IMG/VR virus record: IMGVR_UViG_3300028025_004880
Length of the DNA stretch: 64,000 nt
Reading direction: 5' to 3' (one strand)
Source of the DNA: a virus
Taxonomy: Duplodnaviria > Heunggongvirae > Uroviricota > Caudoviricetes
The notes under the pieces were generated by a model. The model saw only the letters and a program-made list of their open reading frames with translations. It ran no database searches and was not told where the DNA came from. Positions 2,946 to 22,776 of this stretch are shown here, piece after piece; the first letter of the stretch is position 1, and each line of letters begins with the position of its first letter. The translations under genes were made by a program, and so were the position numbers.

Positions 2946-4052
2946 ATGGCAAATCAAGAAAACCCGACAGAAACCCTATTTACTTCTGCCGATGGCAGCA
3001 AGTACAATATAGATAAACTTACTTATCCACTAGACTTAGTAGGAAACTACTCCGAGTATGGAGAGAGTATGATCCTGTTTAACATCAATGTGTTAGAGGA
3101 ATCAAAGTTGGGTAAGGGTCCAGAAGACACTTTTGTGAAAGATTTTACCCCAAGTTATCGTGGTGAATTGGTCGGCGCAGCATATAGTACTGCTAGAGTT
3201 AGAATAACGGCAGCAGCAACAGGTGCGATTACAGGTGCAGGGGTAAGTAGTTTTGCTGGTGAAAATACCTTCGGTGGCGCAGCTCTTGGCGCTGGCGTAA
3301 ATACTGTAGCTGGACTAGAAGTATTACCCAAGAGTGGTAAATTTACAAGACCTGTTAAGCGTTTGAAAACAGCCATCGCTTTACATATGCCAAACCAATT
3401 ACAAATTAGATATGGGATGAATTGGCAGGATAAAGAGATGTTAACTGAAACAGCTGCAGTTGAAGCGACCAATATGGCAACACTGGCTGGTGGTATTGCT
3501 GGTGGTGCGATTGCGAAGGGACTTGGTAACAGTCCTGCTGCTGGCGCAGCAATTGGTGCTGGTATTGGAGCAACTATCGCTAATCCGACAGTCACTGCAG
3601 CATTAGCACTTCAAAGCGTTCCTGGTGGCGAATTTATGCAAGCAGGATCTGGGGTAGCAGTAAACCCAAAGAAAGAACAAACATTTAAAGGTGTTGATTT
3701 TAGAACATTCAACATTAACTACGAATTTTACCCAAGAGATGAAGAAGAAGCAAGAAACGTATTAAATATCATCTATCAATTTAAGTACCACATGCATCCA
3801 GAATACAAAGATGGTACTACATTCTTGTTTGTGTATCCATCAGAATTTGATGTGTTCTACTATAAGGGTAAGGGTCTAAATAAATCAATCCATAAACACA
3901 CCTCATGTGTGTTGGCTGACATGACTGTTAATTATACACCAAATGGTCAATTCGCAACATTCGCAGATGGAACACCAACTCAAATCAACATTCAATTGAC
4001 ATTTAGAGAATTGGGTGTCCTTACTAAAGATAAAATTAAAGAGGGTCTATAA
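2946..4052 (+). CDS. gp48: baseplate tail-tube cap protein, gp48-like, with an internal Gly/Ala-rich segment
   Basis: 368 aa (T4 gp48 is 364 aa). The C-terminal half (FRTFNINYEFYPRDEEEARNVLNIIYQFKYHMHP) has the tube-fold pattern. Located immediately upstream of gp53. A CTAAATAA late-promoter-like motif lies at 2895-2902. Confidence 0.5.
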   Translation: MANQENPTETLFTSADGSKYNIDKLTYPLDLVGNYSEYGESMILFNINVLEESKLGKGPEDTFVKDFTPSYRGELVGAAYSTARVRITAAATGAITGAGVSSFAGENTFGGAALGAGVNTVAGLEVLPKSGKFTRPVKRLKTAIALHMPNQLQIRYGMNWQDKEMLTETAAVEATNMATLAGGIAGGAIAKGLGNSPAAGAAIGAGIGATIANPTVTAALALQSVPGGEFMQAGSGVAVNPKKEQTFKGVDFRTFNINYEFYPRDEEEARNVLNIIYQFKYHMHPEYKDGTTFLFVYPSEFDVFYYKGKGLNKSIHKHTSCVLADMTVNYTPNGQFATFADGTPTQINIQLTFRELGVLTKDKIKEGL

Positions 4053-4543
4053 TGTATTTTGATAACTTCGAACAAATATATTATGATTTTGAAACATCGC
4101 CTGGAAATTTTGATTTGATGGTGTTGAGAGATATAACAAAGAATGTTCGCTTTAGAAAAGAAGTAGTTGAAAATATTTCCCAGTGGGAATACTACTACAT
4201 TAAAGATGGCGAAACAATGGAAATGATTTCAGAAAAACTATATGGATCTCCAATGTATCATTGGGTTCTCATGATTCTAAATGAAAAGTATGACTACATC
4301 AATGATATGCCATTGTCACAACCGCAACTAGATAAACATGTAATAGCAAAATATGGACAGGCGAATATAAATGCTGTTCATCATTACGAAAATGCTGCTG
4401 GTCTTATAGTTAACTCTGGTGTTGGCACAACTACTATCAGTAACACTCTACATGAAGATAGAGTAAATGAACAAAAAAGAAAATTAAAAATATTGGCACC
4501 AGCCTTGATGTCTCAAGTTTTAGATATGTATAGGAAATTATAA
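4052..4543 (+). CDS. gp53: baseplate wedge protein gp53
   Basis: YYYIKDGETMEMISEKLYGSPMYHWVLMILNEKYDYINDMPLSQ aligns to T4 gp53 YYIKGSPRPEELANAIYGNPQLYWVLLMCNDNYDPYYGWITSQE. Start overlaps the upstream stop (TAATG). Confidence 0.75.
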   Translation: MYFDNFEQIYYDFETSPGNFDLMVLRDITKNVRFRKEVVENISQWEYYYIKDGETMEMISEKLYGSPMYHWVLMILNEKYDYINDMPLSQPQLDKHVIAKYGQANINAVHHYENAAGLIVNSGVGTTTISNTLHEDRVNEQKRKLKILAPALMSQVLDMYRKL

Positions 4544-5829
4544 TGTCGTTGATGGGTTTAGCATTTCCAGGTGATGTAAATATTGAAGAAGCTCTAGTAA
4601 GATCTTCCAATGGATTCGTGCAAGATGTGCGTGGGCAGATTGCGCAGGTAGAAGTATTTGAAGATATTTTTTCTCCATTTATTTCAGGCACACTTATTCT
4701 TACAGATGCAATCGATCTTGTTAATTTCTTCCCATTTATCGGCGAAGAGTATTTGACATTGAAGATTTCTACTCCTACAATGGATACTAAGGACAGAATT
4801 ATCCAAGGAGATTTCTATCTCTTTAAGATGGATCAACGTCTATTGCTAAACGATAAAAATGCAGCTTACGTATTACATTTTATTTCAAAAGAAGCAGTCG
4901 CAGATTTAAATTTTAAACTTAGTAAATCGTTTGAAGGTAATTGTAGTGACATTGCGAAAGAACTTATCGGAACACCACGTGGATTAAATTCTCCGAAAGT
5001 AGTAAGATATGAGCAAGCTGCCAACAAGGTAAGATTTGTTTCTAATTTTTGGAGTCCAGTTGCTTGTCTAAATTATCTAGCGAAAGTTGCAGTGAGTGAT
5101 AAGAATAATAGTACGTACTTATTTTTTGAAAACAGAACTGGTTTTAATTTTGTTACTTTAAATGAACTTTACAGTGCCCCTGTGTTTCAAGAGTTTATTT
5201 TTGATAATAAAACTAGAGCATTTACACCGCAAGGCACAAATATACAAGATACTGATGAGGGATTTAAGCGTGTTCACAAAATGGATGTCGAACGATCTTT
5301 TGACTATATGCAAAGAACACGTAGTGGCATATACTCATCAAAAATGATCACACATGATTTTGTCAGCAAAAAATATTCTGTGAAAAACTATAATCTTTTA
5401 CAAGATTTTCAAAACCATAATCACCTAAACAAATTTCCCATCGCATCTTCCCGTGTTCCAGTAGCACCGAATGCGATGCAGTTATATGAACAAAAACATT
5501 TTGGTGTTTATACAGATTACAACGATATAACTAATACGAAAAATGCGCAGCAAAGAATATCTTTAATGGGACAAGCAGAATCTTTTAAGATACAAATTGT
5601 TGTTTCAGGAAGAACCGATTACACAGTTGGAATGAGAGTAAATTTGACTACATATAAAACATCGTCAGCATATACGCAAGAAAATACAGATGACTTAATT
5701 GATAAGATTCATTCTGGAAATTATTTGGTCGCAGCAATAAATCATACAATTGATAAAGAACAGCATACATGTCACATGGAACTAATAAAGGATTCTATGC
5801 TAGTTGATCTTGATAGGGGTGGAAGATGA
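4543..5829 (+). CDS. gp27: baseplate hub protein, gp27-like (inferred)
   Basis: 428 aa ORF overlapping its neighbours, immediately upstream of and translationally coupled to gp5. T4 gp27 (391 aa) is the partner of gp5 in the hub. Sequence similarity to T4 gp27 is not obvious by eye, so this call rests on size and position. Confidence 0.45.
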   Translation: MSLMGLAFPGDVNIEEALVRSSNGFVQDVRGQIAQVEVFEDIFSPFISGTLILTDAIDLVNFFPFIGEEYLTLKISTPTMDTKDRIIQGDFYLFKMDQRLLLNDKNAAYVLHFISKEAVADLNFKLSKSFEGNCSDIAKELIGTPRGLNSPKVVRYEQAANKVRFVSNFWSPVACLNYLAKVAVSDKNNSTYLFFENRTGFNFVTLNELYSAPVFQEFIFDNKTRAFTPQGTNIQDTDEGFKRVHKMDVERSFDYMQRTRSGIYSSKMITHDFVSKKYSVKNYNLLQDFQNHNHLNKFPIASSRVPVAPNAMQLYEQKHFGVYTDYNDITNTKNAQQRISLMGQAESFKIQIVVSGRTDYTVGMRVNLTTYKTSSAYTQENTDDLIDKIHSGNYLVAAINHTIDKEQHTCHMELIKDSMLVDLDRGGR

Positions 5830-8800
5830 GTGCAATGTTTCATACTGGAGTTGTGGAAAGTCGTGATGATCCACTAAGAATTGGAAGATGTAAGGTCAGA
5901 GTAGTTGGCGTTCATACCGAAGATTCAACAATATTGCCAACTGAAGATTTGCCATGGGCATTCCCAATGCAGCCAGTAACTTCTGCTGCTATGAATGGTA
6001 TTGGCCATGCGCCAGTAGGTCCAGTTCCAGGCACTTGGGTAATTATATTTTTTCAAGATGATGCGAAACAGTTTCCTGTTATAATGGGAACTATTGGTGG
6101 TATACCACAACAAAGTTTATATGGACAAATTGATGCTGATACCGACAACATAATATTGGCACCACCTAGTACTGCTGTTGACTTGAGAACTGTTCCTTCT
6201 CAATTACCTGTTACAGAATTGACATTCTATGATCCGAATGGGCAGATCGAAAACTTAACAGAAAAACTCAGCAAAGATATGCGAGTTTTTGGTCCAGGTA
6301 TACAAGAAGAAACTCTAATTGAACAAGTGCTCAATGCTAGGAGCATTAGAATCAATAAACCCTTTGGTCTTTCTGGCGAACAGATTATTACATTTAAAGC
6401 TGCGCCCACTAACTTAGATTCAGTAAAAGAAAGTCGTAGCGGTCAAGAAGAAACATTACAAACTGGTGGTAATATTACTGTTAATGATGGTGTGCCAACA
6501 AGATCAGCGCCACCAACAGCTGCGACTACAACTGCAGCAACCCCCACAGCAGATAAACCTGCTGATACTGATATTAATAAGGCTATCCCAACAGTTCCAC
6601 CGAAAAAGTATCAGAAAAATTTATCAGTGCAAACAGCTTCAATTAAAGCCATGATTGCTGCTTGTGATAAGGTGGGCTTGACAGCGAAAGCGCAAAAGTG
6701 TGCGCTACTTGGTATTGCTGGTGGCGAGTCATCATGGCAACCACTATTTGAAAACACAAGCTACAGCGAAAAAAGATTTGCACAAATTTTCCCAGGAATT
6801 ACAAACAAACGTCCAGAAGAAGAATGGAAAAATTATATCAATTGGGATTCATCAACCAAGGGAAGAGAAGGATTCTTCAGTTACATTTATGGACCAACAA
6901 CACGTGGTAAAGGTTTTTTCCAACACACTACAGATGCTGAGGGTGGAAAATATTACGGACGTGGTTACATTCAGTTAACAGGTAAGTCTAACTATATTAG
7001 ATACAATAATCTCGCTAAAAAATTTGGTTTGAATATTGACATTGTTAACAATCCAGATTCTCTTAATGCTGATCTTAATGTTTGTGCTATTGTTGCTGCA
7101 TTATATTTGGTTGATCGTGTTCCTAAGAATACACCAACAGACGGAAGATATTTTGAAGTAGCAAAAAGAGCTGTTGGTATCAACTCACCAGACATTGGTG
7201 CCAGAAAAAAAGAATTTTTTGAATATTTCTATGGCGAGAAATCGGAAGGTATAGCTGATAAAGAAGCGTTGCCAACTGCTCTTCCTGGAGTTGAAGCATC
7301 CGCTGGTGATGATGAAAACGGTAAAGTAATTCCTTCGCCATCGGCAGCCGAAAGTAGATTTGGTTTTAGAGATCCTAATGGTAAGTATCCACTGGGTAAC
7401 TTAATAAATGAGCCAGACACAAACAGACTTGCTAGAGGTGTTTCTAAGGGAACTGTTATCGATGTAAAAGATGGTTTGCGTGTATTAAAAGTTCCCACAG
7501 CGAATGGTGGGTCATGGGATCAACCAGAAGCGCCATATGGTGGCCAATATCCATATAACAAAGTTTTTGAAACAGAATCAGGACACGTTCAAGAGTGGGA
7601 TGATACTCCAGGCAATGAAAGAATAACTACATTCCACAGAGCAGGAACATACTCAGATATTGATGCCGATGGCACACGTGTTGATTACATACAAGGCGAC
7701 ACTTATACTGTTATGTCTAAGAATGGATTTTTGTATGTATATGGATCTTGCAACTTAACTGTTGGTGGGCAAGTAAACATTTTATGTCAATCCGATGCTA
7801 ACATTAAAGTTGAAGGTAATGCTGAAGCGATTTTTGGTGGCAACGTGGATCTCGGTGTCGCACAAAACTTGAATATGGCTGTTGGCTCTGACTTCTCGCT
7901 CAAAGTTGGTGGAAATTTAGATATCGATGTTGGTGGAAATGCTTCAGCTGCAGTTAAAGGTAATCTTGGCATAGCAGTTACTGAATTGACAGATATTAAA
8001 TCTACTGGAAGTGTAAGGTTTAGTACTGATTCTGCCATGGAGATAAAATCAGGTGGCGCTATGCGTCTTGATTATTCTAGAGGCGATTTTGGTAATGGCG
8101 CAAATCCTGCTACGCCAACTGCTCCAGCTGATGCTACTGCATTGACACCACCACCTATTGGTAATCCACAAGGAAATAGTGTTGCTCCATTAGAGGGAAG
8201 AGAACGTACCGCAGATAAAGAAAAGGCTGGTGAAACAGAAGAAGATCTAAACACACCAGAGGGAAGAAAACTTCAAAACGATAAACAACAAGAAGTTGCT
8301 GGTAGAGAAAATACTTCTGACGCATCAGAAGTTGCGGCAGCTCCATCAGGCGGTGCGCCAGATCCTAAGTCAAAAGTTAATTGTGCAGTTATCTTCTCTT
8401 CAGAAAGATTTACTGACAGCTACAAACTTACAAAGAACTTTACTCTCGGTATGTGTATTGATGGTGGTGTTGGTGGTCGCCATAGATTACAAAATCAAAC
8501 ATTAACTGATGTGTTGCAGAATAATAAAGAACGTATTTACACTCCACAAGAAATTGTGTGTAACTTGGCTAACCACGTTGAAGCGTGTTTAGAACCATTG
8601 GTAGATAAAGAAATTGTTCCACAAGGTATGGTTGGTTACAGAAAAGGATTGTGGGGCATTAACTCTGGCTATCGTCTGAAGGGTGTTATCGGACCAATTG
8701 AATCTGCGACTTCTCCACACTGTAAAGGACAAGCTCTTGACATTGGCTTACGTGGCTCTGATCGTTATAAGAGAACGTATGAATTGGTGCAGGTAATAGA

Positions 8801-9008
8801 ACGTACTATCCCTTATGACCAAATTATTCTTGAGTATGATAATCCTGGGTCATGCTGGATTCATATTGGATATAATTATGCGGGTGGTAATAGAAGAATG
8901 GCATTTACTATGTCGCGACACGCTACTTATCAAAGAGATGCTAAAGGTTTCCCACGTGGATTCGTCTTGTTGGAGCCAGTAAATGGTGTGTTCCCCAAGA
9001 AAGGATAA
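5826..9008 (+). CDS. gp5: baseplate central spike / cell-puncturing protein gp5 with an N-terminal OB domain, a GH19-type lysozyme domain, a VxGxxxxx beta-helix, a Pro/Glu-rich linker and a C-terminal M15-type peptidase-like domain
   Basis: N-terminus FHTGVVESRDDPLRIGRCKVRVVGVHTE...EDLPWAFPMQPVTSAAMNGIGHAPVGPVPGTWV matches the T4 gp5 OB domain (WFVGVVEDVMDP..RGRVRVRVHG...EDLPWMQV.QPITSAAMSGIGG). GH19 catalytic motif YGRGYIQLTGKSNY at about 6958-6996. Eight octapeptide repeats (IKVEGNAE/AIFGGNVD/.../IDVGGNAS/AAVKGNLG) at about 7800-7990. M15-like SPHCKGQALD (H-x6-D) at about 8711-8745, plus WIHIG at about 8851-8870. Confidence 0.85.
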   Translation: MSAMFHTGVVESRDDPLRIGRCKVRVVGVHTEDSTILPTEDLPWAFPMQPVTSAAMNGIGHAPVGPVPGTWVIIFFQDDAKQFPVIMGTIGGIPQQSLYGQIDADTDNIILAPPSTAVDLRTVPSQLPVTELTFYDPNGQIENLTEKLSKDMRVFGPGIQEETLIEQVLNARSIRINKPFGLSGEQIITFKAAPTNLDSVKESRSGQEETLQTGGNITVNDGVPTRSAPPTAATTTAATPTADKPADTDINKAIPTVPPKKYQKNLSVQTASIKAMIAACDKVGLTAKAQKCALLGIAGGESSWQPLFENTSYSEKRFAQIFPGITNKRPEEEWKNYINWDSSTKGREGFFSYIYGPTTRGKGFFQHTTDAEGGKYYGRGYIQLTGKSNYIRYNNLAKKFGLNIDIVNNPDSLNADLNVCAIVAALYLVDRVPKNTPTDGRYFEVAKRAVGINSPDIGARKKEFFEYFYGEKSEGIADKEALPTALPGVEASAGDDENGKVIPSPSAAESRFGFRDPNGKYPLGNLINEPDTNRLARGVSKGTVIDVKDGLRVLKVPTANGGSWDQPEAPYGGQYPYNKVFETESGHVQEWDDTPGNERITTFHRAGTYSDIDADGTRVDYIQGDTYTVMSKNGFLYVYGSCNLTVGGQVNILCQSDANIKVEGNAEAIFGGNVDLGVAQNLNMAVGSDFSLKVGGNLDIDVGGNASAAVKGNLGIAVTELTDIKSTGSVRFSTDSAMEIKSGGAMRLDYSRGDFGNGANPATPTAPADATALTPPPIGNPQGNSVAPLEGRERTADKEKAGETEEDLNTPEGRKLQNDKQQEVAGRENTSDASEVAAAPSGGAPDPKSKVNCAVIFSSERFTDSYKLTKNFTLGMCIDGGVGGRHRLQNQTLTDVLQNNKERIYTPQEIVCNLANHVEACLEPLVDKEIVPQGMVGYRKGLWGINSGYRLKGVIGPIESATSPHCKGQALDIGLRGSDRYKRTYELVQVIERTIPYDQIILEYDNPGSCWIHIGYNYAGGNRRMAFTMSRHATYQRDAKGFPRGFVLLEPVNGVFPKKG

Positions 9009-9011
9009 TTA

Positions 9012-9482
9012 ATGTTTTATCCTACTGATACTCAGCTTGGAACTGTTACTGAAAATCAATCTCTAAATTTTCAGATTTATTATGAGGAAGAAAACATACT
9101 TACACTGACAACCACCAGATATCCTGTTACCATAGTGGCTAACGAATCGAATCCAAGTACCATTTTATTACAATCACTGGTATCTCCAATTAGGGCAAGT
9201 ATAAGTGGTTATTATTTTGACTCTTTTACAAATAGTATACAGTATAGGACTCCCACCGATACTTTTGTTACTGTGCCGAAATTTGAACAAATTGATATAA
9301 CAAAATTGTCTGAAATGGTATCATATGATGCTGATACTAATCGAACAAAAAATTATACATATACAGCCACTGCAAGAGACGGATTGATTGTAAAGGGAAT
9401 AAATATCTATACCATAACAGTGCAAAATGATTGGACTAATGGTAAAAACTCTCTTCAAACTTATGTAGGATACACAGTATAA
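9012..9482 (+). CDS. hypothetical protein (156 aa) between the spike and PAAR genes
   Basis: ORF in the track, coupled to its neighbours by ATAATG overlaps. No family recognised. Confidence 0.45.
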   Translation: MFYPTDTQLGTVTENQSLNFQIYYEEENILTLTTTRYPVTIVANESNPSTILLQSLVSPIRASISGYYFDSFTNSIQYRTPTDTFVTVPKFEQIDITKLSEMVSYDADTNRTKNYTYTATARDGLIVKGINIYTITVQNDWTNGKNSLQTYVGYTV

Positions 9483-9790
9483 TGCCAGCAATCGTAAGAG
9501 TTGGAGATAAAAGCACTGGACATGGTTGTTTTCCACCAACCCCTATGTTACAAACACCAGTTTCTAAGACCTTTGTGAATGGTATAAAGGTTGGTGTAGT
9601 GAATAGTGGGTCGTTTCACGCCACTCATTCTTGTGGTATTACTGTGCACCCCCAGCCAAGCGCAAGGGCACATGTTTCTGGCTCTGGCAACACTTTCATA
9701 GAAGGGTTTCCTGCTGCTAGAATTGGTGATAATATTTCTTGCGGAGACGCAATCGCACAAGGTTCCACGAATACCTTCATTGGTGGATAA
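9482..9790 (+). CDS. gp5.4: PAAR-repeat spike-tip protein (gp5.4-like)
   Basis: 102 aa, Gly/His/Cys-rich with PAAR-like repeats (GFPAARIGD, HGCFPP, HATHSCG). Sits in the same position as T4 gp5.4, just after gp5. Confidence 0.7.
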   Translation: MPAIVRVGDKSTGHGCFPPTPMLQTPVSKTFVNGIKVGVVNSGSFHATHSCGITVHPQPSARAHVSGSGNTFIEGFPAARIGDNISCGDAIAQGSTNTFIGG

Positions 9791-10194: not shown

Positions 10195-12033
10195 ATGGCA
10201 ACAACAAATAAAAGAATAAAGATTGGCGAACTTGGTTTTGATGGCATTAAAGATAATTTAAAAGATTATCTAAAAGCGCAAACACAATTTCAAGATTATA
10301 ATTTTGAAGGATCTGGTCTTTCTGTTTTGCTAGATGTCCTTGCATATAATACACATTATAATGCTCTGTATACAAACTTAGCAGTAAACGAAATGTTTTT
10401 GGATTCAGCCAGCAAAAGAAACAGTGTTGTTTCAATTGCTAAAATGTTGGGATACTTGCCAAGATCTTCTCGAGCTGCACAAGCAACTGTAAATATTCAA
10501 ATCACACCGACATCTGTTACACCTCCACCATTTTTAGTTTTAGATGCTGGTACTGCATTTACTACTACCATAGATAGCCAATCGTATATACTATACACAA
10601 GAGAATCATTTACTAGTGCGCTTGTTGCTGGTAAATACACTTTTACTGGGGTAACATTATTTGAAGGAACACCATTAGAGTATCAGTTTACATTCCAAGA
10701 AGGCGCACGATACATTATACCGAATAATCAAATAGACACATCATTATTGAAGGTTAGTGTTCAAGAAGGATCGGTAGCTGGCGCATATACTGTATACACT
10801 TTCTCAAATAAAATTACATCGGTAGATGCAACAACAAGAGCATATTTCTTAAAAGAAGTTGATGATGGGTTGTACGAAATTTATTTCGGCGATGATATCA
10901 TAGGCTATAAACCATCAAATGGTAACACCGTATTGGTATCATATATTAGATGTAACGAAGGTAAAGTAAATGGCGCAAGCGTATTTAATATGCAAGGAAC
11001 AGTTGCTAATGTAGGAAATGTTGTAATAACAACTACTTCAGTTGCCAGTGGTGGCGCTGCTCCAGAATCTATCGCAAGTATCAAATCTAATGCACCAACA
11101 AACTATTCCGCACAAAATCGTGCTGTTACTGCTGAAGATTATAAAGTTATTTTACCACAATTATACAGTAACATCGATGCTATCTCAGTATGGGGTGGTG
11201 AAGAAAACGATCCGCCAATATATGGAAAAGTTTTCATTACTGTTAAACCAATTACTGGTGAGACGTTGACACCAGAGACAAAACTTAAAATAACAAACGA
11301 ATTACTTAAGAGTAAAAATGTTGTTTCTATAACACCTGAAATTATTGATGCTGAGTTTCTAAGAGTTAATTTAACAGCCACTGTTTATTATAATCCAACA
11401 ATAACTAATAATAGTGCATCTTCTATTTCATCGTTGGTTAGACAAGCCATTGTTAATTTTAACCAAACGCAATTAAATAAATTTGACAGTGTTTTGCGCT
11501 CTAGTACACTGACAAAAGTTATAGATGGTGCCGAGAAGGGTATTATTAACAGCATCATTTCAATTAGATTAACAAAATCGTTCGTACCAATTTTTAATCG
11601 TGTTCAAACATATAAAGTAAGTTTAGGAAATCCTATTTACAGCGAAACTGGTGTTAGCGGAACTGTAGTGAGTACTGGGTTTACTGTGTCGAACGATGCT
11701 ACAACATATTACCTAGAAGATAATGGACTTGGCTTCTTAAAAAGATTTTCTATAACAAACACTGGTCAAAAAATTGTTTCTCCAGGAACTTATGGAACTG
11801 TAAATTATCAAGATGGAAAAATTGTTCTTCAAAGCGTAAACATTACATCAGCTGTGGATAATAAAGTCGAATTTACTGTTAGACCTGCAGCGCAAGATGT
11901 TGTCTCAGTTAGAAATCAGCTGGCCACACTTAATGAAGCAAAAATTGTTCTAAACGTAATCGAAGATAAAGTTGCATCTGGCGAAACAACCGCAGGACAA
12001 TATGTCTTCACTAAAACAACTACGATAACATAA
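10195..12033 (+). CDS. gp6: baseplate wedge protein gp6-like
   Basis: 612 aa (T4 gp6 is 660 aa). Immediately follows gp25 with an ATAAATG overlap, and gp7/gp8 follow. Assignment by size and synteny; the N-terminal region is J-like. Confidence 0.6.
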   Translation: MATTNKRIKIGELGFDGIKDNLKDYLKAQTQFQDYNFEGSGLSVLLDVLAYNTHYNALYTNLAVNEMFLDSASKRNSVVSIAKMLGYLPRSSRAAQATVNIQITPTSVTPPPFLVLDAGTAFTTTIDSQSYILYTRESFTSALVAGKYTFTGVTLFEGTPLEYQFTFQEGARYIIPNNQIDTSLLKVSVQEGSVAGAYTVYTFSNKITSVDATTRAYFLKEVDDGLYEIYFGDDIIGYKPSNGNTVLVSYIRCNEGKVNGASVFNMQGTVANVGNVVITTTSVASGGAAPESIASIKSNAPTNYSAQNRAVTAEDYKVILPQLYSNIDAISVWGGEENDPPIYGKVFITVKPITGETLTPETKLKITNELLKSKNVVSITPEIIDAEFLRVNLTATVYYNPTITNNSASSISSLVRQAIVNFNQTQLNKFDSVLRSSTLTKVIDGAEKGIINSIISIRLTKSFVPIFNRVQTYKVSLGNPIYSETGVSGTVVSTGFTVSNDATTYYLEDNGLGFLKRFSITNTGQKIVSPGTYGTVNYQDGKIVLQSVNITSAVDNKVEFTVRPAAQDVVSVRNQLATLNEAKIVLNVIEDKVASGETTAGQYVFTKTTTIT

Positions 12034-16056: not shown

Positions 16057-19000
16057 ATGACAATTAACTTTAACGTAAACCCATATTACGACGACTACGC
16101 AGACGAAGATTTATTTCTTCGTGTGTTGTTTCGTCCAGGATATGCGGTTCAGGCAAGAGAATTAACGCAAGCCCAAACAATTTTACAAAAACAAGTAAGT
16201 CGTTTGGGTGACCATATATTTAAAAATGGATCAATGGTCATTCCTGGTGGTGTAAACGTAGACAACCAAGTACACTTTGCTAAACTAGAAGATTTGTATC
16301 AAGGTATTGCTGTTAAATCATACCTGACACAGTTTGTTGACAAAGTTATAACTGGTACAACTTCAGGACTTAAAGCTGTAGTAGTTGACACTTCAGAGTG
16401 TGCATGCGTTTTAGCAGATGAAAAAGAAATCGCTACATTGTATTATAAAATTGATGGTACAGGCGATGATGATACAACAAAGAGATTTATTCCTGGCGAG
16501 CAATTAATTGCGTATGAAGTAGACAATCAAACTACAACAAACTATCGTTTGGCAACAAACCAAACAGGCGACCTTGTTGTAAACATAAGAGGATTCGGTG
16601 ATACTGGTTTAGTTGGAACCACATACACAAACAATCCGATTAAAGACGTATTGGGTTATGGATATGTTGTTGAGGTTGAAGCTGGTATCTATTATATTGA
16701 TGGATTTTTCGTTAGAAATGAAGAACTCCATCTTTACATCGGAAGATTTAGTACAGACACAACTGCTCGTGTTGGCTTCAGTGTAACCGAAACAATTGTT
16801 ACACCAGAAGACGATGGCGCATTAAACGATAATGCTCAAGGAACAAACAACTTTGCAGCTCCTGGTGCGCATCGCTATAAGATAGAACTCTCTTTAGCGA
16901 AAAAACAACTATTAACAACAGATGAAGATAGATTTATTGAACTTGTTCGTGTTAAACAAGGACGTGTTCAGCAAATCTTATCTAAGTCATCATATGCCGA
17001 ACTAGAAAAAACATTTGCCAGAAGAACATTCGATGAGTCAGGTAGTTATGAAGTAAATAAATTTAAACTTTCTGCCTTTGAACATTTACAAGATGCGAAT
17101 AATCCACTGGGAATTTATACAGCTACCGATGGTGGTAATGAAGATAAATTCGTTGTTGAGATTGATCCTGGAAAAGCGTATGTTCAGGGCTACGAAATCG
17201 AATCTGTAGCGGGGCAATATTTATCATTAAATAAAGCACGTGATGCAGCAACAGGGCATATTCTCTCTTTAAATAATCAGCCTGTTGCAACACCTGTTGG
17301 AAATTATGTACTTGTAAGAAACATATACAACTACCCAGACTTCTCAACATTCTCTACAGTATATCTTGTAAAAAAACTTAACGCATCTGGTGGCGCAGCA
17401 CCATCAGCAGCTGATGTAATCGGTACTGCTAAAGTAAGATCTTTCCAGCTACACAACGGAGACTACGCTACTCCAATATTCAAATTAAGTTTATTTGATA
17501 TTAAAATTGATGCAGGGTATTCTTTTGAGAATCACGTAAAATCAATTGTGAGTGGTTTATCTGGCTCAACAAATTTCACATGTAATATTGTTTCCAACAA
17601 TAAACAACTGACAGGTTCTGCAACATCAGCAACTAATACTACAGCAGTTACAGGTACTGGTACTAAATTTACTTCTGAACTTGTGGCAGATGATGTTATC
17701 TTTATCGATGGTGTTCAAGCAGGAACACTGGCATCAACACCAACAAATAACGCAGCATTAACATTATCCGCAAATAGTGCCGTGGCGAAAACTGCTGGTA
17801 TCGTTTCTGTGTTTAGAGCAAAAATATTTGAACCTGATTCTCAGGCACTAATATTTAAAATTGGTTACGAATCTATTAAAACATTACTAGGATTTGATGG
17901 CTCGGCATATTCGCTGAACGAAACGTCATCAAAAGTAAGAAGAATTTTTGGTACGAAAACTGCAGCGGACAATAAGATTGAATATACACTTAACACCAAC
18001 TTAGAAACTTTCCCTTCTGATTTAGATATTTCTAACTATCTGTTGTATAACACATCGACTAATGCTGTCGTTGCAATAACACCCGCCGATGTAACAATTA
18101 CAGTAAATAACACCAAGGTGGAAATTTCTGGTTTAACTAATGGTACAATTTATCGCTTAATTGCAACAGTTACACAGGCTAATACTGAAGGTAGTGCGAA
18201 AGAAAAAATCTTAGCAACAAACACAGAATATATTACTGGCCAAAAAACTGTTATTAATAAAATTATCCCACTAGCGAAAAATGATTTGTTGAAGATTGAC
18301 AGCATCATTATGAATGCTGGCGACTTTACAGGTAACACTTTTACTACAGGTATTGATGTTACTAATCGCTTTACGCTTGATGATGGTCAACGTGATACGC
18401 ACTACACAAATGGTTCGCTTGTTCTAAAACCTGGAGAAGCTGTACCATCTGGTGCACTAAGAGTAGTTTACAAATATTTTAATCATGGTGGTACTGGTGA
18501 TTATTTCTCTGTAGATTCTTACACCAACTCTATTAATAATAATCCTACATTTAACTATGAAGACATTCCATCTTATTCAGTAAAAAATGCAGATGGAAAA
18601 GTGGACACTATTTACCTACATGATGTTATTGACTATCGTCCATGTATCGGTGGTAACAATACAAGTTTCAACGAAATACCAGTTATTGGTAACGAGATGA
18701 CAACTGACATCGCTTACTATTTACCACGTTTCGATAAAATTGTTCTAGATTCAGTCGGTCGTTTTAATGTTATAACAGGTGTTCCATCTGCGAACCCACA
18801 AGAACCACTAGATCCAAAAGACGGAATGGTTCTTGCTTCCGTTATGATTCCAGCTTACACAAAATCAGTCAGTGACATTAAATTCTATCAACGTGACAAT
18901 CGTCGCTACACAATGCGCGATATCGGCGATTTGGAAAGAAGAATTTCAAATCTTGAATATTATGTTTCATTAAATCTTCTTGAAACTGAAACAGCCCAGT

Positions 19001-22000
19001 TACAAATTAAAGATGCAATCACTGGTATTGATCGCTTTAAAAACGGATTTATCGTTGACCAATTTACTGGTCATGGAATAGGCGATGTTAAGAATGAGGA
19101 TTACAGAGTTTCTATTGATACTGTCAATAGAGAACTTCGCCCAATGCACGAAACTAATGCCGTAGCAATTGTTGAGGATCTAGAATCTGCAGCACAGCGT
19201 GTCAACTCAGGATATGCAAAAACTGGCGACATTATTTCTTTACCATACACTAAAGAACCATTCATCTTCAACCCAAATGCAACAAGAACAATTGATGTTA
19301 ACCCATATAAAATTGGCGCATTCAAAGGTGAGATAATTTTAAATCCAGAAAGCGATGTTTGGAAAGACACTGAACGTAGACCAGACTTAACTGTTGTTGA
19401 CGATAATGGATACGATGCTATTCGCTTTATGGCTGAACAGCTTGGTGTTACTGGAACACAGTGGGGTGAGTGGCAAACTAACTGGACAGGTATCTCTACT
19501 GCAACTTCAACATGGCAAACTGGTAATCCAAACGCACGTCGTCAAACTGTTACTGGCTTCGAGCAAACAGTTACTACACAAACAGGAACATCCTCTAGAG
19601 AAGGAATTCAAACATCATTAACTGGCACAACTAACGCAGTTGATTATGGTGATCGTGTAGTTGATATTTCTTACGCACCATACATGCGTGCAAGACCTAT
19701 TGTTTATGTAGCAAAAAATCTGAAGGCGCAAACTAAATTTTATGCATTCTTTGATGGTAGATCTATCAGTCAATTTATTAAACCAGCGGACGTGTTTAAA
19801 GTTAATTTAGCAACTGGTGCTAATAAAATGATTTTTGATCCTGCGCAATTGACAGAAAATATTTTAACTGACAGTATCGCTAGAACAGAGAATGGTATTG
19901 TTCAACCAGCATTTAGCGTTGGTGACGTAGTAGAAAATGAAACACATACACCAACAAACATTACTAGCATTTCGCATATAACCAATGTGCTTGGCGCATC
20001 TTCGTTCACAATATCCGTAGCTTCTGCGACGCAAATAAAACCTGGACACTTTGTTCAACTTTACAACTTGGGTCCATCTAGAGTGATCGCTTCAACTAAT
20101 ACGTTGTTTGCTGATCAAGTTAGAGGAAATTCTACAATAATTGATTACACACTTAATACCAGCAGAGAATTAAATTACAGAATCTTTAAAGTAACCAATG
20201 TATCTGGAACAACACTGACATTGGCTGATCCGAATGGCGCAACTATTCCAGCATTTAGTGCATATAATACTGCAGCATATAACAATGGCGATGGTGGTAA
20301 AGTAAAACGTCTAACAGCTTCTGGTGTTGTTGCATTTGCTGGTGCGGTAACTACTTACACTACTGTGAATAATGTAGTATATCCATCTGATATGGAAATT
20401 CATGTTGTAAATATTAAAAATGGATTCGCTCCTGGTGATGTTTTACAAGGAACCACTGATATAGAGATTGGTATTAAAAATCGTGTAGACCTTGAGTTAA
20501 TAAATGGTACAGGTGTTGGTTTATTGCCAACAATGAAAGTGGTTGGCGATTCCATTAAGACTGATATTTGGGGATCTGCTGTTGGGGTGTATAATCTTCC
20601 CGAGGCAACATTCAAATCAGGTGAAAGAACATTTAAACTAATTGACAATATTTCTAACAGCGATGCAGACTTTGATTCGAAGGGGTCTGCTTTCTACATC
20701 TCATCTGGAACTACACTCGCAAAAGAAAGAACGATTGTTAATTCAAGAGATGTTCGTTTCGTTCAAGATAGACTTTATGAAGAAATACCAGTACGTAGAA
20801 CATCGACATCTACACGTGTGCTGTATTCATATTGGACAGGACATGATCCAGTTGCGCAAACATTCACAGTAAGTTCACTTGGTGGTGCGTTTGTTACTGG
20901 TGTTGATGTGTATTTCCAAGAAGCTGGCAATCGCCCAATTTCTATTGAGTTGAGAACAACTAATAATGGAGTGCCATCATCTAAGATCGTACCTCTAACT
21001 GAAGTTACTAAATCTCCGCAAGAAGTTAACACTTCAGAAAATGGATCTGTACCTACGAGATTTGAATTCGCATCGCCTGTATATTTACAAGATGCTGAAA
21101 CATATGCTCTTATCGTTAAGACTGATGAGCCAGGATGTCAAATCTTTGTTTCTGAATTGGGTCAAAGCGACATTATAACAAACAACATTGTAACATCGCA
21201 ACCATTAACAGGATCTCTATTCTTATCACAGAATACACAAGAGTTCCAAATTAATCCGTTACTAGATCTGAAGTTTACACTATATCAAGCAAAATTTGAT
21301 ACATCAGCTACGCTTACTGCTTCGTTTAAAGCAGTGCCACCAACTACTATTAATTTAGATGTAAATCCGTTTGAGATTTCAAAGGGTACTGCGAAAATTC
21401 GTGTTTCTGCTAAAAATCATGGATTTGCTGCTGGCGATAAAGTTGTCATTAGTCATGTACCGATTGGTAACTACGGAACGAATGATCCAGAATTAGGAAT
21501 TCCTTCTACATTATTGAATGGTATACAAACTGTAATCGCAGATGGACTTTCTGATAATAACTTTGTGTTTGAAATTGCTACACAAGACAATTTATCTCCT
21601 CCTAATTTATTGCTTGCGAAAAAAGCCACTGGACCCGTGCAAACTACACTAGCTACATTGGTAAAGGGTAACTATGGTGGTTCAGGAATTAAGATTAGTA
21701 GACAACTAAGCGCAGATCAAATCTACGTTAAGACTGCAGATTTAACATTCCCTGAAACAACTCTTAGATATAAAGTAAGCGCAGAAAATGCAGCAGGAAC
21801 TGCATCTCCATTTGCTTCTATTGTTACTAACTCTGACTATATCTTCGACACAAGAAAAGTTGTAAAATCTTTAGAAAACCAATTTGTTAACGTGGTGACA
21901 GGTGCTATTCGTCCTTCACTAAGATTACAAGCAGAACTATCATCTACCAATGAGAATGTATCGCCGATAATTGACATGCAAAAAATTACAACATATGTTG

Positions 22001-22776
22001 TAAAGAATTTGGTTAATGATGTGCAAGAATTTGATATCAACGTAAGTGATATTGACAAGCGAATTTTATTGAACAATACAATAACATCTTCACTAACATT
22101 CGCAAACGCTACATCAACAACATGTACAATATTAACTGATGATGACGCTGCAGATAATTTACTATCAACTATTACACCTGGAAAATTTATCCAAATAGAA
22201 AATGCCAGCATCGATCTAAATGGTACTGGACCTGTCGGCACTTCAACAGGAAAATACCATGTTAAGAGTGTTGTAGTTTCATCTGATACTGTTGATTCTG
22301 GTGATGCTGAGGGCGATAAGGTATTGGTTACTTTGTCTGGTCAATTTAATGCAACAGGAACTATTGCAACTAATACACAAGGTTCGACATTCGCGATTAG
22401 CGTATTGGATAAATTCTTGTCAGATAATGCAGCAGTAGGTTGCAGCAATGCAGCAAATTATGTTACTAGAGCTTTATCATTATCTTCTCCTGCAGATTCG
22501 TTTAAAATTATATTTGACGCAAACTTGCCTGAAGGAACTACCTTGAACGTGTTGTATAAAACATGGTCTAATCCTGTTGAACTAAATAATGTTCAATACG
22601 AAAGCACAGGGTTCTCTAAATCAACATCAGATGCACGTGATGTATTCAGTGAAAGAATGATAACAATTGAAAACATTGCTCTGTTTAAAAATATTATTGT
22701 GAAGTTGGTATTAAAATCCAACCATCCTGTGTATGTTCCGAAACTTAAAAACTTAAGAGTGGTTGCTTATTCATAA
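16057..22776 (+). CDS. giant virion structural protein (2239 aa), a baseplate- or fibre-associated protein taking the place of gp9-gp12
   Basis: Single uninterrupted ORF. Thr/Ser/Asn/Gly-rich beta-type composition. It sits in the position where T4 encodes gp9-gp12. Conserved-looking N-terminus NPYYDDYADEDLFLRVLFRPGYAVQARELTQAQTILQ. Confidence 0.6.
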   Translation: MTINFNVNPYYDDYADEDLFLRVLFRPGYAVQARELTQAQTILQKQVSRLGDHIFKNGSMVIPGGVNVDNQVHFAKLEDLYQGIAVKSYLTQFVDKVITGTTSGLKAVVVDTSECACVLADEKEIATLYYKIDGTGDDDTTKRFIPGEQLIAYEVDNQTTTNYRLATNQTGDLVVNIRGFGDTGLVGTTYTNNPIKDVLGYGYVVEVEAGIYYIDGFFVRNEELHLYIGRFSTDTTARVGFSVTETIVTPEDDGALNDNAQGTNNFAAPGAHRYKIELSLAKKQLLTTDEDRFIELVRVKQGRVQQILSKSSYAELEKTFARRTFDESGSYEVNKFKLSAFEHLQDANNPLGIYTATDGGNEDKFVVEIDPGKAYVQGYEIESVAGQYLSLNKARDAATGHILSLNNQPVATPVGNYVLVRNIYNYPDFSTFSTVYLVKKLNASGGAAPSAADVIGTAKVRSFQLHNGDYATPIFKLSLFDIKIDAGYSFENHVKSIVSGLSGSTNFTCNIVSNNKQLTGSATSATNTTAVTGTGTKFTSELVADDVIFIDGVQAGTLASTPTNNAALTLSANSAVAKTAGIVSVFRAKIFEPDSQALIFKIGYESIKTLLGFDGSAYSLNETSSKVRRIFGTKTAADNKIEYTLNTNLETFPSDLDISNYLLYNTSTNAVVAITPADVTITVNNTKVEISGLTNGTIYRLIATVTQANTEGSAKEKILATNTEYITGQKTVINKIIPLAKNDLLKIDSIIMNAGDFTGNTFTTGIDVTNRFTLDDGQRDTHYTNGSLVLKPGEAVPSGALRVVYKYFNHGGTGDYFSVDSYTNSINNNPTFNYEDIPSYSVKNADGKVDTIYLHDVIDYRPCIGGNNTSFNEIPVIGNEMTTDIAYYLPRFDKIVLDSVGRFNVITGVPSANPQEPLDPKDGMVLASVMIPAYTKSVSDIKFYQRDNRRYTMRDIGDLERRISNLEYYVSLNLLETETAQLQIKDAITGIDRFKNGFIVDQFTGHGIGDVKNEDYRVSIDTVNRELRPMHETNAVAIVEDLESAAQRVNSGYAKTGDIISLPYTKEPFIFNPNATRTIDVNPYKIGAFKGEIILNPESDVWKDTERRPDLTVVDDNGYDAIRFMAEQLGVTGTQWGEWQTNWTGISTATSTWQTGNPNARRQTVTGFEQTVTTQTGTSSREGIQTSLTGTTNAVDYGDRVVDISYAPYMRARPIVYVAKNLKAQTKFYAFFDGRSISQFIKPADVFKVNLATGANKMIFDPAQLTENILTDSIARTENGIVQPAFSVGDVVENETHTPTNITSISHITNVLGASSFTISVASATQIKPGHFVQLYNLGPSRVIASTNTLFADQVRGNSTIIDYTLNTSRELNYRIFKVTNVSGTTLTLADPNGATIPAFSAYNTAAYNNGDGGKVKRLTASGVVAFAGAVTTYTTVNNVVYPSDMEIHVVNIKNGFAPGDVLQGTTDIEIGIKNRVDLELINGTGVGLLPTMKVVGDSIKTDIWGSAVGVYNLPEATFKSGERTFKLIDNISNSDADFDSKGSAFYISSGTTLAKERTIVNSRDVRFVQDRLYEEIPVRRTSTSTRVLYSYWTGHDPVAQTFTVSSLGGAFVTGVDVYFQEAGNRPISIELRTTNNGVPSSKIVPLTEVTKSPQEVNTSENGSVPTRFEFASPVYLQDAETYALIVKTDEPGCQIFVSELGQSDIITNNIVTSQPLTGSLFLSQNTQEFQINPLLDLKFTLYQAKFDTSATLTASFKAVPPTTINLDVNPFEISKGTAKIRVSAKNHGFAAGDKVVISHVPIGNYGTNDPELGIPSTLLNGIQTVIADGLSDNNFVFEIATQDNLSPPNLLLAKKATGPVQTTLATLVKGNYGGSGIKISRQLSADQIYVKTADLTFPETTLRYKVSAENAAGTASPFASIVTNSDYIFDTRKVVKSLENQFVNVVTGAIRPSLRLQAELSSTNENVSPIIDMQKITTYVVKNLVNDVQEFDINVSDIDKRILLNNTITSSLTFANATSTTCTILTDDDAADNLLSTITPGKFIQIENASIDLNGTGPVGTSTGKYHVKSVVVSSDTVDSGDAEGDKVLVTLSGQFNATGTIATNTQGSTFAISVLDKFLSDNAAVGCSNAANYVTRALSLSSPADSFKIIFDANLPEGTTLNVLYKTWSNPVELNNVQYESTGFSKSTSDARDVFSERMITIENIALFKNIIVKLVLKSNHPVYVPKLKNLRVVAYS

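What the first reader, a model, noticed from the sequence alone, without database searches (positions are those of the whole stretch)
5826..9008. Central spike gp5 carries two different cell-wall hydrolase domains and ends in a peptidase domain after the beta-helix
Seen in sequence: the T4-gp5-like OB domain (aa ~1-100) is followed by a domain with the GH19 chitinase/lysozyme signature YGRGYIQLTGKSNY, preceded by ...LLGIAGGESSWQ. Then come eight VxGxxxxx octapeptide repeats typical of the gp5C triple beta-helix (nt ~7800-7990) and a Pro/Glu/Thr-rich linker. After the linker is a C-terminal domain with SPHCKGQALD (H-x6-D) and WIHIG motifs, which I read as an M15-type zinc D,D- or L,D-peptidase. 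From established knowledge, T4 gp5 has a single GH24 T4-lysozyme-like domain and ends in the beta-helix capped by the PAAR protein gp5.4. Here a PAAR gene is present (9482..9790), yet the helix is followed by about 300 more residues. Inference: either the C-terminal peptidase is proteolytically released (T4 gp5 is also processed) or the tip architecture differs. A glycosidase plus peptidase spike would cut both glycan and peptide cross-links during penetration.
Basis: partly seen in the sequence, partly recalled or inferred. Interest (0 to 1): 0.6.

Follow-up and report, generated by a model that had tools for sequence, protein, structure and literature searches.

The report
Phage spike with tethered tip peptidase
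The tail spike protein of this uncultured T4-like phage carries a sugar-cutting cell-wall enzyme in its body and a zinc peptidase tethered beyond its needle, a design that is widespread in environmental phages but that I did not find described in the literature I could search.

Summary
ORF 5826..9008 (+, 1060 aa) is a T4 gp5-type central spike.

Domain order:
- OB domain, aa 5-96.
- A GH19 endolysin-type muramidase, aa ~268-478, with E301/E309 conserved.
- The gp5 middle part, then about 14 octads of triple beta-helix, aa 641-756.
- A 94-aa Pro/Glu-rich linker with conserved motifs.

T4 gp5 ends where residue 756 aligns, so 304 residues lie beyond the T4 end. A separate PAAR gene follows at 9482..9790.

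The architecture is not a one-off. 49 distinct full-length orthologues in IMG/VR keep all domains and catalytic residues, each with a PAAR gene wherever downstream sequence exists. Cultured phages (BUCT-ZZ01, Cr30, pf16, Melnitz) have variants. In other myoviruses the same module sits on the PAAR protein instead.

Best reading: a phage counterpart of an "evolved VgrG", delivering a peptidase at the spike tip and a muramidase behind it. Whether the peptidase stays attached is untested.

The parts
5826..9008 (+). gp5-type central spike gene, 1060 aa
   Evidence: [quoted passage not shown] T4 gp5 structures E~9e-40.
5838..6113 (+). N-terminal OB domain (aa 5-96)
   Evidence: Pfam Gp5_OB E=1.7e-26. 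48% identical to T4 gp5 residues 10-106.
6171..6413 (+). Small six-stranded beta-barrel insertion domain (aa 116-196), function unknown
6468..6611 (+). Thr/Pro/Ala-rich linker 1 (aa 215-262)
   Evidence: Composition. Poorly conserved and gapped among 49 orthologues.
6627..7259 (+). GH19 endolysin-type glycosidase domain (aa ~268-478). Catalytic Glu pair E301 (nt 6726-6728) and E309 (nt 6750-6752); Q383 and T385 in the YGRGYIQLTG motif.
   Evidence: Pfam GH19 26.2 bits against a cut-off of 25.5 on the excised domain. phrog_181 endolysin E=8.4e-22. Profile against PDB: 8p8e E=6.9e-13 and SPN1S endolysin 4ok7 E=3.7e-9. E301 and E309 align with residues 51 and 60 of 8p8e, the numbering of the catalytic Glu pair of the muramidase PaGH19Lys. 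They are 100% conserved in 49 orthologues.
7359..7439 (+). Return to the gp5 scaffold: the GFRDPNGKYP...TNRLARG motif (aa 512-538)
   Evidence: Aligns with T4 gp5 residues 113-135, GFSDPTGQYP...TNVLNQG, and with Pfam Gp5_OB model positions 75-110. In T4 this motif lies before the lysozyme domain. Here it lies after GH19.
7512..7745 (+). gp5 middle domain (aa 563-640)
   Evidence: Aligns with T4 gp5 residues 376-461.
7746..8093 (+). Triple beta-helix region, about 14 octads (aa 641-756), ending in DYSRGDFG
   Evidence: Pfam Gp5_trimer_C hit. Period-8 register and autocorrelation. Aligns with T4 gp5 up to its last residue, G575.
8094..8375 (+). Linker 2 (aa 757-850), Pro/Glu/Ala-rich, with conserved motifs LTPPP, PPER and ETxEDxxTPEGR
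   Evidence: Composition. Motif conservation across 49 orthologues.
8376..9005 (+). C-terminal M15A (LAS-fold) zinc peptidase domain (aa 851-1060). R950 (nt 8673-8675), H965 (8718-8720), D972 (8739-8741), E1003 (8832-8834), W1011-x-H1013 (8856-8864).
9482..9790 (+). PAAR spike-tip protein (gp5.4 homologue), 102 aa
   Evidence: Pfam PAAR_motif 33.3 bits against a cut-off of 27. 30% identical to T4 gp5.4, E=2e-10.
9012..9482 (+). gp5.1-like protein, 156 aa, between the spike and PAAR genes
   Evidence: phrog_1168. The orthologue in L002 carries PF26906 Phage_T4_Y07E. Weak match to T4 gp5.1, E=4e-4.
4543..5829 (+). Upstream 428-aa tail protein in the position of the gp27 hub; gp27 identity is not shown
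   Evidence: phrog_350 'tail protein' E=1.9e-77 and no Pfam hit. Conserved upstream of the spike gene in the IMG/VR loci.

Best explanation
This is the central spike (gp5 homologue) of an uncultured aquatic T4-like myovirus. It carries two cell-wall enzymes at two different places.

A GH19 endolysin-type muramidase is inserted in a loop of the N-terminal part. This puts it roughly where T4 has its lysozyme, although it entered the scaffold at a different point.

An M15A zinc peptidase hangs on a 94-residue tether from the far end of the membrane-piercing beta-helix. That end is still capped by a separate PAAR protein.

Inferred mechanism:
- The spike is a trimer, so each virion would carry three GH19 and three M15A domains.
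- On sheath contraction the PAAR-capped helix crosses the outer membrane.
- The tethered peptidases reach the peptidoglycan first and cut peptide stems or cross-links.
- The muramidase, nearer the tube, then cuts the glycan strands and opens a hole for the tail tube.

Functionally this is the phage counterpart of a type VI secretion 'evolved VgrG', a spike with a C-terminal effector used together with a PAAR tip.

Shown here: domain identities, conserved catalytic residues, extension beyond the T4 C-terminus, co-occurrence with PAAR, wide conservation, and modular exchange. Inferred, not shown: trimer stoichiometry, retention of the peptidase in the virion, order of action, and bond specificity.
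For: Domain identities.

Catalytic residues: GH19 E301/E309 and the M15A residues R950, H965 and D972 are 100% conserved in 49 distinct orthologues. E1003 and H1013 are conserved in 96-98%, and the rest are gaps. The M15A motifs equal those of experimentally active phage M15A endolysins. GH19 endolysins are muramidases.

Extension: the T4 gp5 C-terminus aligns with residue 756.

PAAR: tblastn finds a PAAR gene downstream in 50 of 68 related IMG/VR loci. Six loci end just after the spike gene. In the other 12 a gap of ~300 nt precedes gp25. The six such loci I examined each hold a 98-108-aa ORF, and the three tested all hit PAAR_motif at E<=1e-5 (one above the Pfam cut-off, two just below it at 26.4-26.7 vs 27 bits). 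Cr30 and Melnitz also have PAAR directly after a gp5-M15 fusion.

The module is placed at the tip in two ways. It is fused to the gp5 C-terminus in BUCT-ZZ01, Cr30, pf16 and Melnitz. It is fused to the PAAR C-terminus in Vibrio phage 1.244.A, Milchi, PA5oct and the P. putida jumbo phages.

The PA5oct PAAR-peptidase protein was detected in virions by mass spectrometry and called a 'tail muramoyl-pentapeptidase'.

Breadth: among the best 150 representatives at 50% identity, 70 are at least 600 aa, and 69 of those have the domain at the extreme C-terminus. Eight of the nine I scanned have a gp5 OB hit and the ninth a Gp5_trimer_C hit. Their internal enzymes vary: GH19, GH24, or none detected.

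Precedents: delivery of the evolved spike VgrG2b, which has a C-terminal metallopeptidase, requires PAAR3. Myophage A-1(L) has a baseplate hub with glycosidase and peptidase activities shown in vitro.
Against: - No experiment or structure shows that the C-terminal domain is present in mature virions of any gp5-fusion phage.
- T4 gp5 is cleaved during assembly, so cleavage here is possible.
- Three ~23 kDa domains near a tip that is supposed to be sharp is sterically awkward, and I could not model the trimer with PAAR.
- The window's own C-terminal domain misses the Pfam PF08291 threshold (13 bits against 23.2). Assignment therefore rests on homologues, motifs and a model of moderate confidence (mean pLDDT 74.5).
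- The bond cleaved is unknown. A pure D,D-carboxypeptidase would not help penetration.
Confidence: 0.65

Rival explanations
1. The C-terminal extension is cut off during spike maturation and is not carried by the virion. It would act only as an assembly aid for the trimeric helix, or be discarded.
For: C-terminal intramolecular chaperones that are auto-cleaved are known for trimeric phage fibres (established knowledge). The linker has conserved motifs that could include a cleavage site.
Against: - A Pfam scan of aa 851-1060 at E<=10 returned only Peptidase_M15_3, with no chaperone-type (Peptidase_S74) match.
- A full zinc-peptidase active site is conserved in 96-100% of orthologues, which a mere folding aid does not need.
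- The same module on the monomeric PAAR protein cannot be a trimerisation chaperone.
- The PA5oct PAAR-peptidase is found in virions.
Confidence: 0.15
2. The M15A-like domain is a non-catalytic peptidoglycan-binding or anchoring module, like the non-enzymatic hedgehog members of the same fold.
For: The position equivalent to H195 of 1LBU is Trp (W1011). The profile search of PDB sequences found only weak hedgehog N-domain matches, E 0.5-1.5.
Confidence: 0.08
3. The enzymes serve mainly in lysis from within: unassembled gp5 acts as the phage's endolysin rather than in penetration.
For: The same M15A module is the stand-alone endolysin of Pelagibacter podophages and others. The Melnitz paper found no lysin-like gene apart from its gp67.
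Against: The domains are fused to an essential structural protein inside the baseplate gene block, with no signal or holin context in view. The fusion partners are always tip proteins, gp5 or PAAR, which points to delivery from outside. Only 64 kb of the genome is visible, so a separate endolysin cannot be excluded.
Confidence: 0.07
4. The long ORF is an artefact: a lost stop codon or a mis-assembly joined gp5 to a downstream peptidase gene.
For: Protein databases contain ~180-aa 'stand-alone' versions, for example P0002.
Against: P0002 is a gene-calling artefact. Its contig L002 has a run of N inside the helix region, and read through it gives the same fused ORF. 49 distinct full-length orthologues on independent contigs have the same architecture.
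Confidence: 0.01

Closest known systems
Bacteriophage T4 gp5 / gp5.4 central spike complex
   Same: OB domain, GFxDPxGxYP motif, middle domain and octad beta-helix are homologous. The gene order 53 - 5 - 5.1 - 5.4(PAAR) is kept. One glycosidase domain is carried near the top of the needle.
   Different: The glycosidase is GH19, not GH24. It is inserted between the OB barrel and the GFxDP motif, whereas the T4 lysozyme lies after that motif. There is an extra beta-barrel domain. The helix is shorter (~116 against ~187 residues). 304 residues (linker plus M15A peptidase) follow the point where T4 gp5 ends.
'Evolved' VgrG spikes of type VI secretion, e.g. P. aeruginosa VgrG2b with a C-terminal metallopeptidase, delivered with PAAR3
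   Same: A gp5-like beta-helical spike is extended at its C-terminus by an enzyme that acts in the target periplasm, and is used together with a separate PAAR tip.
   Different: This one is on a phage virion rather than a secretion system. It has no fused gp27 module and no TTR adaptor. The enzyme is an M15A (LAS-fold) peptidase. Its purpose would be entry, not killing. This is an analogy of design; homology of the extensions was not tested.
PAAR proteins with a C-terminal M15A peptidase in myoviruses (PA5oct gp321, Vibrio phage 1.244.A, Pseudomonas phage Milchi)
   Same: A homologous M15A module (32-36% identity) is placed at the spike tip. The PA5oct protein is a virion component by mass spectrometry.
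   Different: There the module is fused to the monomeric PAAR cap, giving one copy per virion. Here it is fused to trimeric gp5, giving three copies, and the PAAR is a plain 102-aa protein.
Phage M15A endolysins (Burkholderia phage ST79, Proteus phage LysPM1) and S. albus Zn D-Ala-D-Ala carboxypeptidase (1LBU)
   Different: Those are free single-domain enzymes of 116-213 aa. Here the domain is about 210 aa, has an N-terminal extension, and is covalently tethered to a structural protein. Its substrate bond is unknown.
Anabaena myophage A-1(L) baseplate hub gp15
   Same: A contractile-tail baseplate protein that combines glycosidase-type and peptidase domains, both shown to be lytic in vitro.
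   Different: Those enzymes are on the hub (the protein around the spike), not on the spike and not beyond the needle tip.

Membership tests
T4 gp5-type central spike | N-terminal gp5 OB domain | tested here: met
   Pfam Gp5_OB 93.6 bits against a cut-off of 25. 48% identical to T4 gp5 residues 10-106.
T4 gp5-type central spike | C-terminal triple beta-helix built of 8-residue repeats | tested here: met
   About 14 octads in register, with lag-8 and lag-16 autocorrelation of 0.47 and 0.50. BLASTP alignment to T4 gp5 residues 378-575. Pfam Gp5_trimer_C is sub-threshold at 19.3 against 30.9 bits.
T4 gp5-type central spike | Encoded in the baseplate hub/wedge gene block next to the PAAR tip gene | tested here: met
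   gp48-like, gp53, a 428-aa tail protein, the spike, gp5.1-like, PAAR, gp25 and gp6 lie in a row.
T4 gp5-type central spike | Forms a trimer seated in the gp27 hub | not testable with these tools
   No multimer prediction is available.
Glycoside hydrolase family 19, endolysin subfamily | Significant match to the family profile or to solved members | tested here: met
   Pfam PF00182 scores 26.2 against 25.5 bits on the excised domain, but 23.8 on the whole protein. The orthologue profile hits 27 PDB sequences at E<=1e-3; nearly all those listed are named GH19 endolysins or chitinases, best 6.9e-13.
Glycoside hydrolase family 19, endolysin subfamily | Two catalytic glutamates about 9 residues apart, plus the Q/T of the GRGxIQLTG motif | tested here: met
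   E301 and E309 align with residues 51 and 60 of 8p8e by my count of the printed alignment. This matches the E51/E60 pair of PaGH19Lys. E301, E309 and T385 are 100% conserved and Q383 98%.
Glycoside hydrolase family 19, endolysin subfamily | Muramidase activity on peptidoglycan | not testable with these tools
   Needs an enzyme assay.
Peptidase M15A (Pfam PF08291 Peptidase_M15_3; LAS fold) | Scores above the Pfam gathering threshold | tested here: not met
   The window domain scores 13 bits against 23.2, E=0.12. Homologues do score: 18 of 21 aligned relatives hit PF08291 at E<=0.1, best 9.3e-18. Long spike relatives P0072, P0097 and P0135 pass the cut-off.
Peptidase M15A (Pfam PF08291 Peptidase_M15_3; LAS fold) | Zinc-ligand motifs HxxxxxxD and (W/F)xH, plus the SGYR arginine | tested here: met
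   R950, H965-x6-D972 and W1011-x-H1013 are present, invariant in A1 and conserved in the 49 orthologues.
Peptidase M15A (Pfam PF08291 Peptidase_M15_3; LAS fold) | Fold of the type enzyme 1LBU | tested here: met
Peptidase M15A (Pfam PF08291 Peptidase_M15_3; LAS fold) | Zinc-dependent cleavage of peptidoglycan peptides | not testable with these tools
   Needs an enzyme assay and muropeptide analysis.
Evolved-VgrG-like spike (design class, not a homology family) | Enzyme domain covalently attached beyond the end of the beta-helix | tested here: met
   The last residue of T4 gp5 aligns with G756, and 304 residues follow.
Evolved-VgrG-like spike (design class, not a homology family) | Used together with a separate PAAR tip protein | tested here: inconclusive
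   Co-encoding is universal in the clade wherever downstream sequence exists. Physical co-assembly was not tested.
C-terminal intramolecular chaperone of trimeric fibres (Peptidase_S74) | Match to the chaperone/auto-protease family | tested here: not met
   The Pfam scan of aa 851-1060 at E<=10 returned only Peptidase_M15_3.

The most novel reading that the evidence does not exclude
Spike-tip enzymes are an exchangeable, host-matched cassette. The conserved linker docks the three M15A domains in a defined position: folded back along the needle or packed around the PAAR cap. They would then be the first activity released into the periplasm. Recombination swaps the linker+M15A and GH19 modules between otherwise near-identical phages to track the host's peptidoglycan chemistry. 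That would make the central spike a host-range determinant as well as a needle.
Probability: 0.3. Interest if true: 0.7.

Novelty: new variant of a known kind. Interest (0 to 1): 0.55.

Why it matters
The textbook picture from T4 is a needle that ends in a sharp PAAR cap, with one lysozyme behind it. Here a large and diverse set of phage spikes carries a second enzyme of a different bond class beyond the needle tip. Among the 150 best 50%-identity representatives, 69 long proteins have the peptidase domain at their C-terminus.

This raises a concrete structural question: where do three 23 kDa domains sit in a loaded baseplate, and do they stay attached? It also gives phage biology a natural counterpart of evolved VgrG and PAAR effectors.

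The question is directly testable, because four cultured phages have variants of the design (pf16, Cr30, BUCT-ZZ01, Melnitz). [quoted passage not shown] The Melnitz paper states that the phage has no lysin-like gene other than gp67. These tethered M15A and GH19 modules are also a pool of naturally outside-acting cell-wall enzymes against Gram-negative hosts.

Tried and rejected
- Megablast of window 1-25000 against cultured phages found nothing. The lineage is uncultured; its capsid protein is 63% identical to that of Melnitz.
- I checked whether short 'stand-alone' homologues such as P0002 mean the fusion is an artefact. They are gene-calling fragments; the L002 contig has an N gap.
- I considered that the extension replaces PAAR. 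This is rejected: PAAR is co-encoded throughout.
- I considered a chaperone-type C-terminal domain. There is no such match.
- I considered that the extra domain at aa 116-196 is a third enzyme. Its fold is a generic accessory beta-barrel.
- Literature searches did not turn up a description of a gp5 with a post-helix peptidase. The library lacks most subscription journals, so this is not proof of absence.

Full report
**The object**

Window 5826..9008 (+) is one uninterrupted ORF of 1060 aa. It sits in a T4-like baseplate block:
- gp48-like, 2946..4052
- gp53, 4052..4543
- a 428-aa tail protein in the gp27 position, 4543..5829
- the spike
- a gp5.1-like gene, 9012..9482
- PAAR, 9482..9790
- gp25
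- gp6, 10195..12033

Further downstream lie gp7/gp8-like wedge genes, sheath, portal and capsid genes. The capsid protein is 63% identical to that of Methylophilales phage Melnitz and about 62% to marine cyanomyophages. No cultured phage matches at the DNA level. The window therefore comes from an uncultured aquatic T4-like myovirus of unknown host.

**Domain map** (coordinates)

1. aa 5-96, gp5 OB domain. Pfam E=1.7e-26; 48% identical to T4 gp5.
   - It has no family hit.
   - It is confidently modelled, with pLDDT 93-98.
   - It resembles accessory barrels of phage coat, decoration and tailspike proteins.
   - It is not an enzyme fold, and one homologue lacks it.
3. aa 215-262, a variable Thr/Pro/Ala linker.
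4. aa ~268-478, GH19.
   - On the whole protein Pfam GH19 falls just short (23.8 against 25.5 bits). On the excised domain it passes (26.2 bits).
   - A profile of 25 orthologues hits GH19 endolysin and chitinase structures down to E=6.9e-13, including the SPN1S endolysin.
   - E301 and E309 align with residues 51 and 60 of the best structure. That numbering is the catalytic pair of the muramidase PaGH19Lys.
5. aa 512-538, the motif GFRDPNGKYP...TNRLARG. It matches T4 gp5 residues 113-135 and positions 75-110 of the Pfam OB model. In T4 this motif precedes the lysozyme domain; here it follows GH19. The two glycosidases therefore entered the gp5 scaffold at different points, which argues for independent acquisitions.
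6. aa 563-756, the gp5 middle part and about 14 octads of beta-helix. This aligns with T4 gp5 residues 378-575, right up to T4's last residue.
7. aa 757-850, a 94-residue linker.
8. aa 851-1060, the C-terminal domain.

**The C-terminal domain is an M15A zinc peptidase**

- Single-sequence searches were almost silent.
- The domain has significant homologues that carry Pfam PF08291. 18 of 21 aligned relatives hit that family, best 9.3e-18.
- The alignment has invariant SGYR, S-x-H-x2-G-x-A-x-D, a Glu, and W-x-H.
- The papers on the experimentally active phage M15A endolysins ST79 and LysPM1 describe the same motifs: HxxxxxxD and (W/F)xH, with the aromatic residue at the position of H195 of 1LBU. 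The Trp is therefore normal for this subfamily and not a sign of decay.
The subfamily is M15A rather than VanY.

**The fusion is real, conserved and widespread**

- A 91-kb ENA contig has an orthologue about 80% identical. Its 'stand-alone' 184-aa peptidase protein is a gene-calling artefact caused by a run of N in the helix region.
[quoted passage not shown] 49 distinct full-length ORFs (about 1010-1070 aa) show the same order of all parts.
- In those 49, the GH19 Glu pair and the M15A residues R950, H965 and D972 are 100% conserved. E1003, W1011 and H1013 are conserved in 96-98%, and the remainder are gaps.
- In a library of 1.84 billion 50%-identity representatives the domain profile finds 7101 proteins at E<=1e-3. 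Among the best 150, 70 are at least 600 aa, and 69 of those have the domain at the very C-terminus.
- Of nine I scanned, eight have a gp5 OB hit and the ninth a Gp5_trimer_C hit, with varied internal enzymes: GH19, T4-type GH24, none detected, or very large inserts. In one, the M15A domain sits at the internal 'lysozyme' position instead.

**Cultured phages with variants**

- Synechococcus phage BUCT-ZZ01: GH19 plus a C-terminal M15-like domain.
- Caulobacter phage Cr30: Phage_lysozyme2 plus the C-terminal domain.
- Pseudomonas phage pf16: no glycosidase detected.
- Methylophilales phage Melnitz.

[quoted passage not shown] The Melnitz paper says the phage lacks lysin-like genes other than gp67.

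**Relation to PAAR**

- The window's PAAR is an ordinary 102-aa protein, 30% identical to T4 gp5.4.
- tblastn finds PAAR downstream in 50 of the 68 related loci. Six contigs end too early. The other 12 have a gap of ~300 nt before gp25.
- The six such loci I examined each hold a 98-108-aa ORF. The three tested all hit PAAR_motif at E<=1e-5, one above the Pfam cut-off and two just below it.
- Cr30 and Melnitz also encode PAAR directly after their gp5-M15 fusions. The extension therefore does not replace the cap.
- In Vibrio phage 1.244.A, Pseudomonas phages Milchi and PA5oct, and a group of P. putida jumbo phages, the homologous M15A module is fused to the C-terminus of the PAAR protein, and gp5 ends at the helix.
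- The PA5oct protein was found in virions by mass spectrometry and was called a tail muramoyl-pentapeptidase in one sentence of a preprint.
- Stand-alone versions serve as endolysins in Pelagibacter podophages and others.
- One peptidase module is therefore used in three ways, and two of them place it at the spike tip.

**The linker and modular exchange**

The 94-residue linker is not mere spacer. LTPPP, PPER and ETxEDxxTPEGR motifs are conserved across the 49 orthologues. This suggests a specific contact or processing site, but I cannot say which.

I compared the window with a near-identical IMG/VR contig, L012:
- Flanking genes: 93-100% nucleotide identity.
- Distal helix and the first 15 linker residues: a 230-nt run with no mismatch.
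- nt 8138 to ~9011 (rest of the linker plus M15A): an abrupt drop to 61-79%.
- From ~9030 onward: back to 96-100%.
- GH19 region: 71-86%.

This mosaic pattern indicates that the enzyme modules are exchanged by recombination between otherwise near-identical phages.

**Mechanism**

Shown here:
- Two intact, differently classed cell-wall hydrolase domains on one spike protein.
- One of them lies beyond the needle.
- PAAR is co-encoded.

From established knowledge of T4, gp5 is a trimer whose needle crosses the outer membrane and whose lysozyme then digests peptidoglycan.

Inferred:
- Three tethered M15A domains enter the periplasm with the tip and cut peptide stems or cross-links.
- The GH19 domains near the tube cut the glycan.

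The closest design precedent is the evolved VgrG2b spike of P. aeruginosa, whose C-terminal metallopeptidase effector needs PAAR3 for delivery. Within phages, the A-1(L) hub combines glycosidase and peptidase activities, but on the hub rather than at the tip.

**Open points**

- Whether the domain is cleaved off after assembly.
- Where it sits in the loaded baseplate.
- Which bond it cuts.

**Verdict**

The object is a new variant of known kinds: a gp5 spike, virion-associated hydrolases, and evolved spikes. It is common in nature, and I found no description of it in the literature I could search.

Noticed in passing
window 5885-9030, compared with locus L012: Mosaic nucleotide identity between two otherwise near-identical phages. 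Flanks are 93-100% identical, and there is a 230-nt perfect run at 7908-8137. Identity then drops abruptly to 61-79% across linker+M15A (8138 to ~9011), and to 71-86% across GH19. This looks like recombinational exchange of the enzyme cassettes.
   Followed up: partly
window 6171-6413 (aa 116-196): An extra small beta-barrel domain lies between the OB domain and GH19, modelled with pLDDT 93-98. It resembles accessory barrels of phage coat, decoration and tailspike proteins. Its function is unknown, and homologue P0031 lacks it.
   Followed up: yes
window 8094-8375 (aa 757-850): The post-helix linker carries motifs conserved across 49 orthologues (LTPPP, PPER, ETxEDxxTPEGR). It could be a docking or processing site; I have no explanation.
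   Followed up: partly
L007:1320-4363 (Methylophilales phage Melnitz): The Melnitz spike is annotated as two adjacent ORFs. The first has OB plus a weak VanY-like hit (E=1e-4). The second has the helix plus the C-terminal M15-like domain, and PAAR follows. The published paper states that Melnitz has no lysin-like gene apart from gp67.
   Followed up: partly
L004:4523-4954 (Pseudomonas phage pf16): The gene after the pf16 gp5-M15 fusion is a DUF5675 protein, not PAAR. I did not look for a PAAR gene elsewhere in pf16.
   Followed up: no
L002:7619-10555 and protein P0002: A run of N inside the helix region of an ENA scaffold made the gene caller emit a 184-aa 'stand-alone' peptidase starting at an internal Met. 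Several short database entries of this family on short contigs may likewise be fragments; I did not check them.
   Followed up: yes
proteins P0102, P0135, P0072 and P0097: Other spike variants exist. One has T4-type GH24 plus a C-terminal M15A (828 aa). One has M15A at the internal 'lysozyme' position (539 aa). Others are 1300-1700-aa spikes with inserts of 600-900 aa of unknown content before the helix.
   Followed up: partly
L009:2881-3426 (Moraxella phage Mcat8): A 181-aa 'plate protein' two genes downstream of the large tail protein is a strong stand-alone PF08291 peptidase (E=1e-17). It may be another virion-associated use of the module, in a temperate phage.
   Followed up: no
window 16057-22776 and 25875-31403: Two very large structural ORFs (2239 and 1842 aa) lie downstream of the baseplate genes. 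The first matches phrog_358 (unknown function), and its L002 counterpart carries DUF4815.
   Followed up: no
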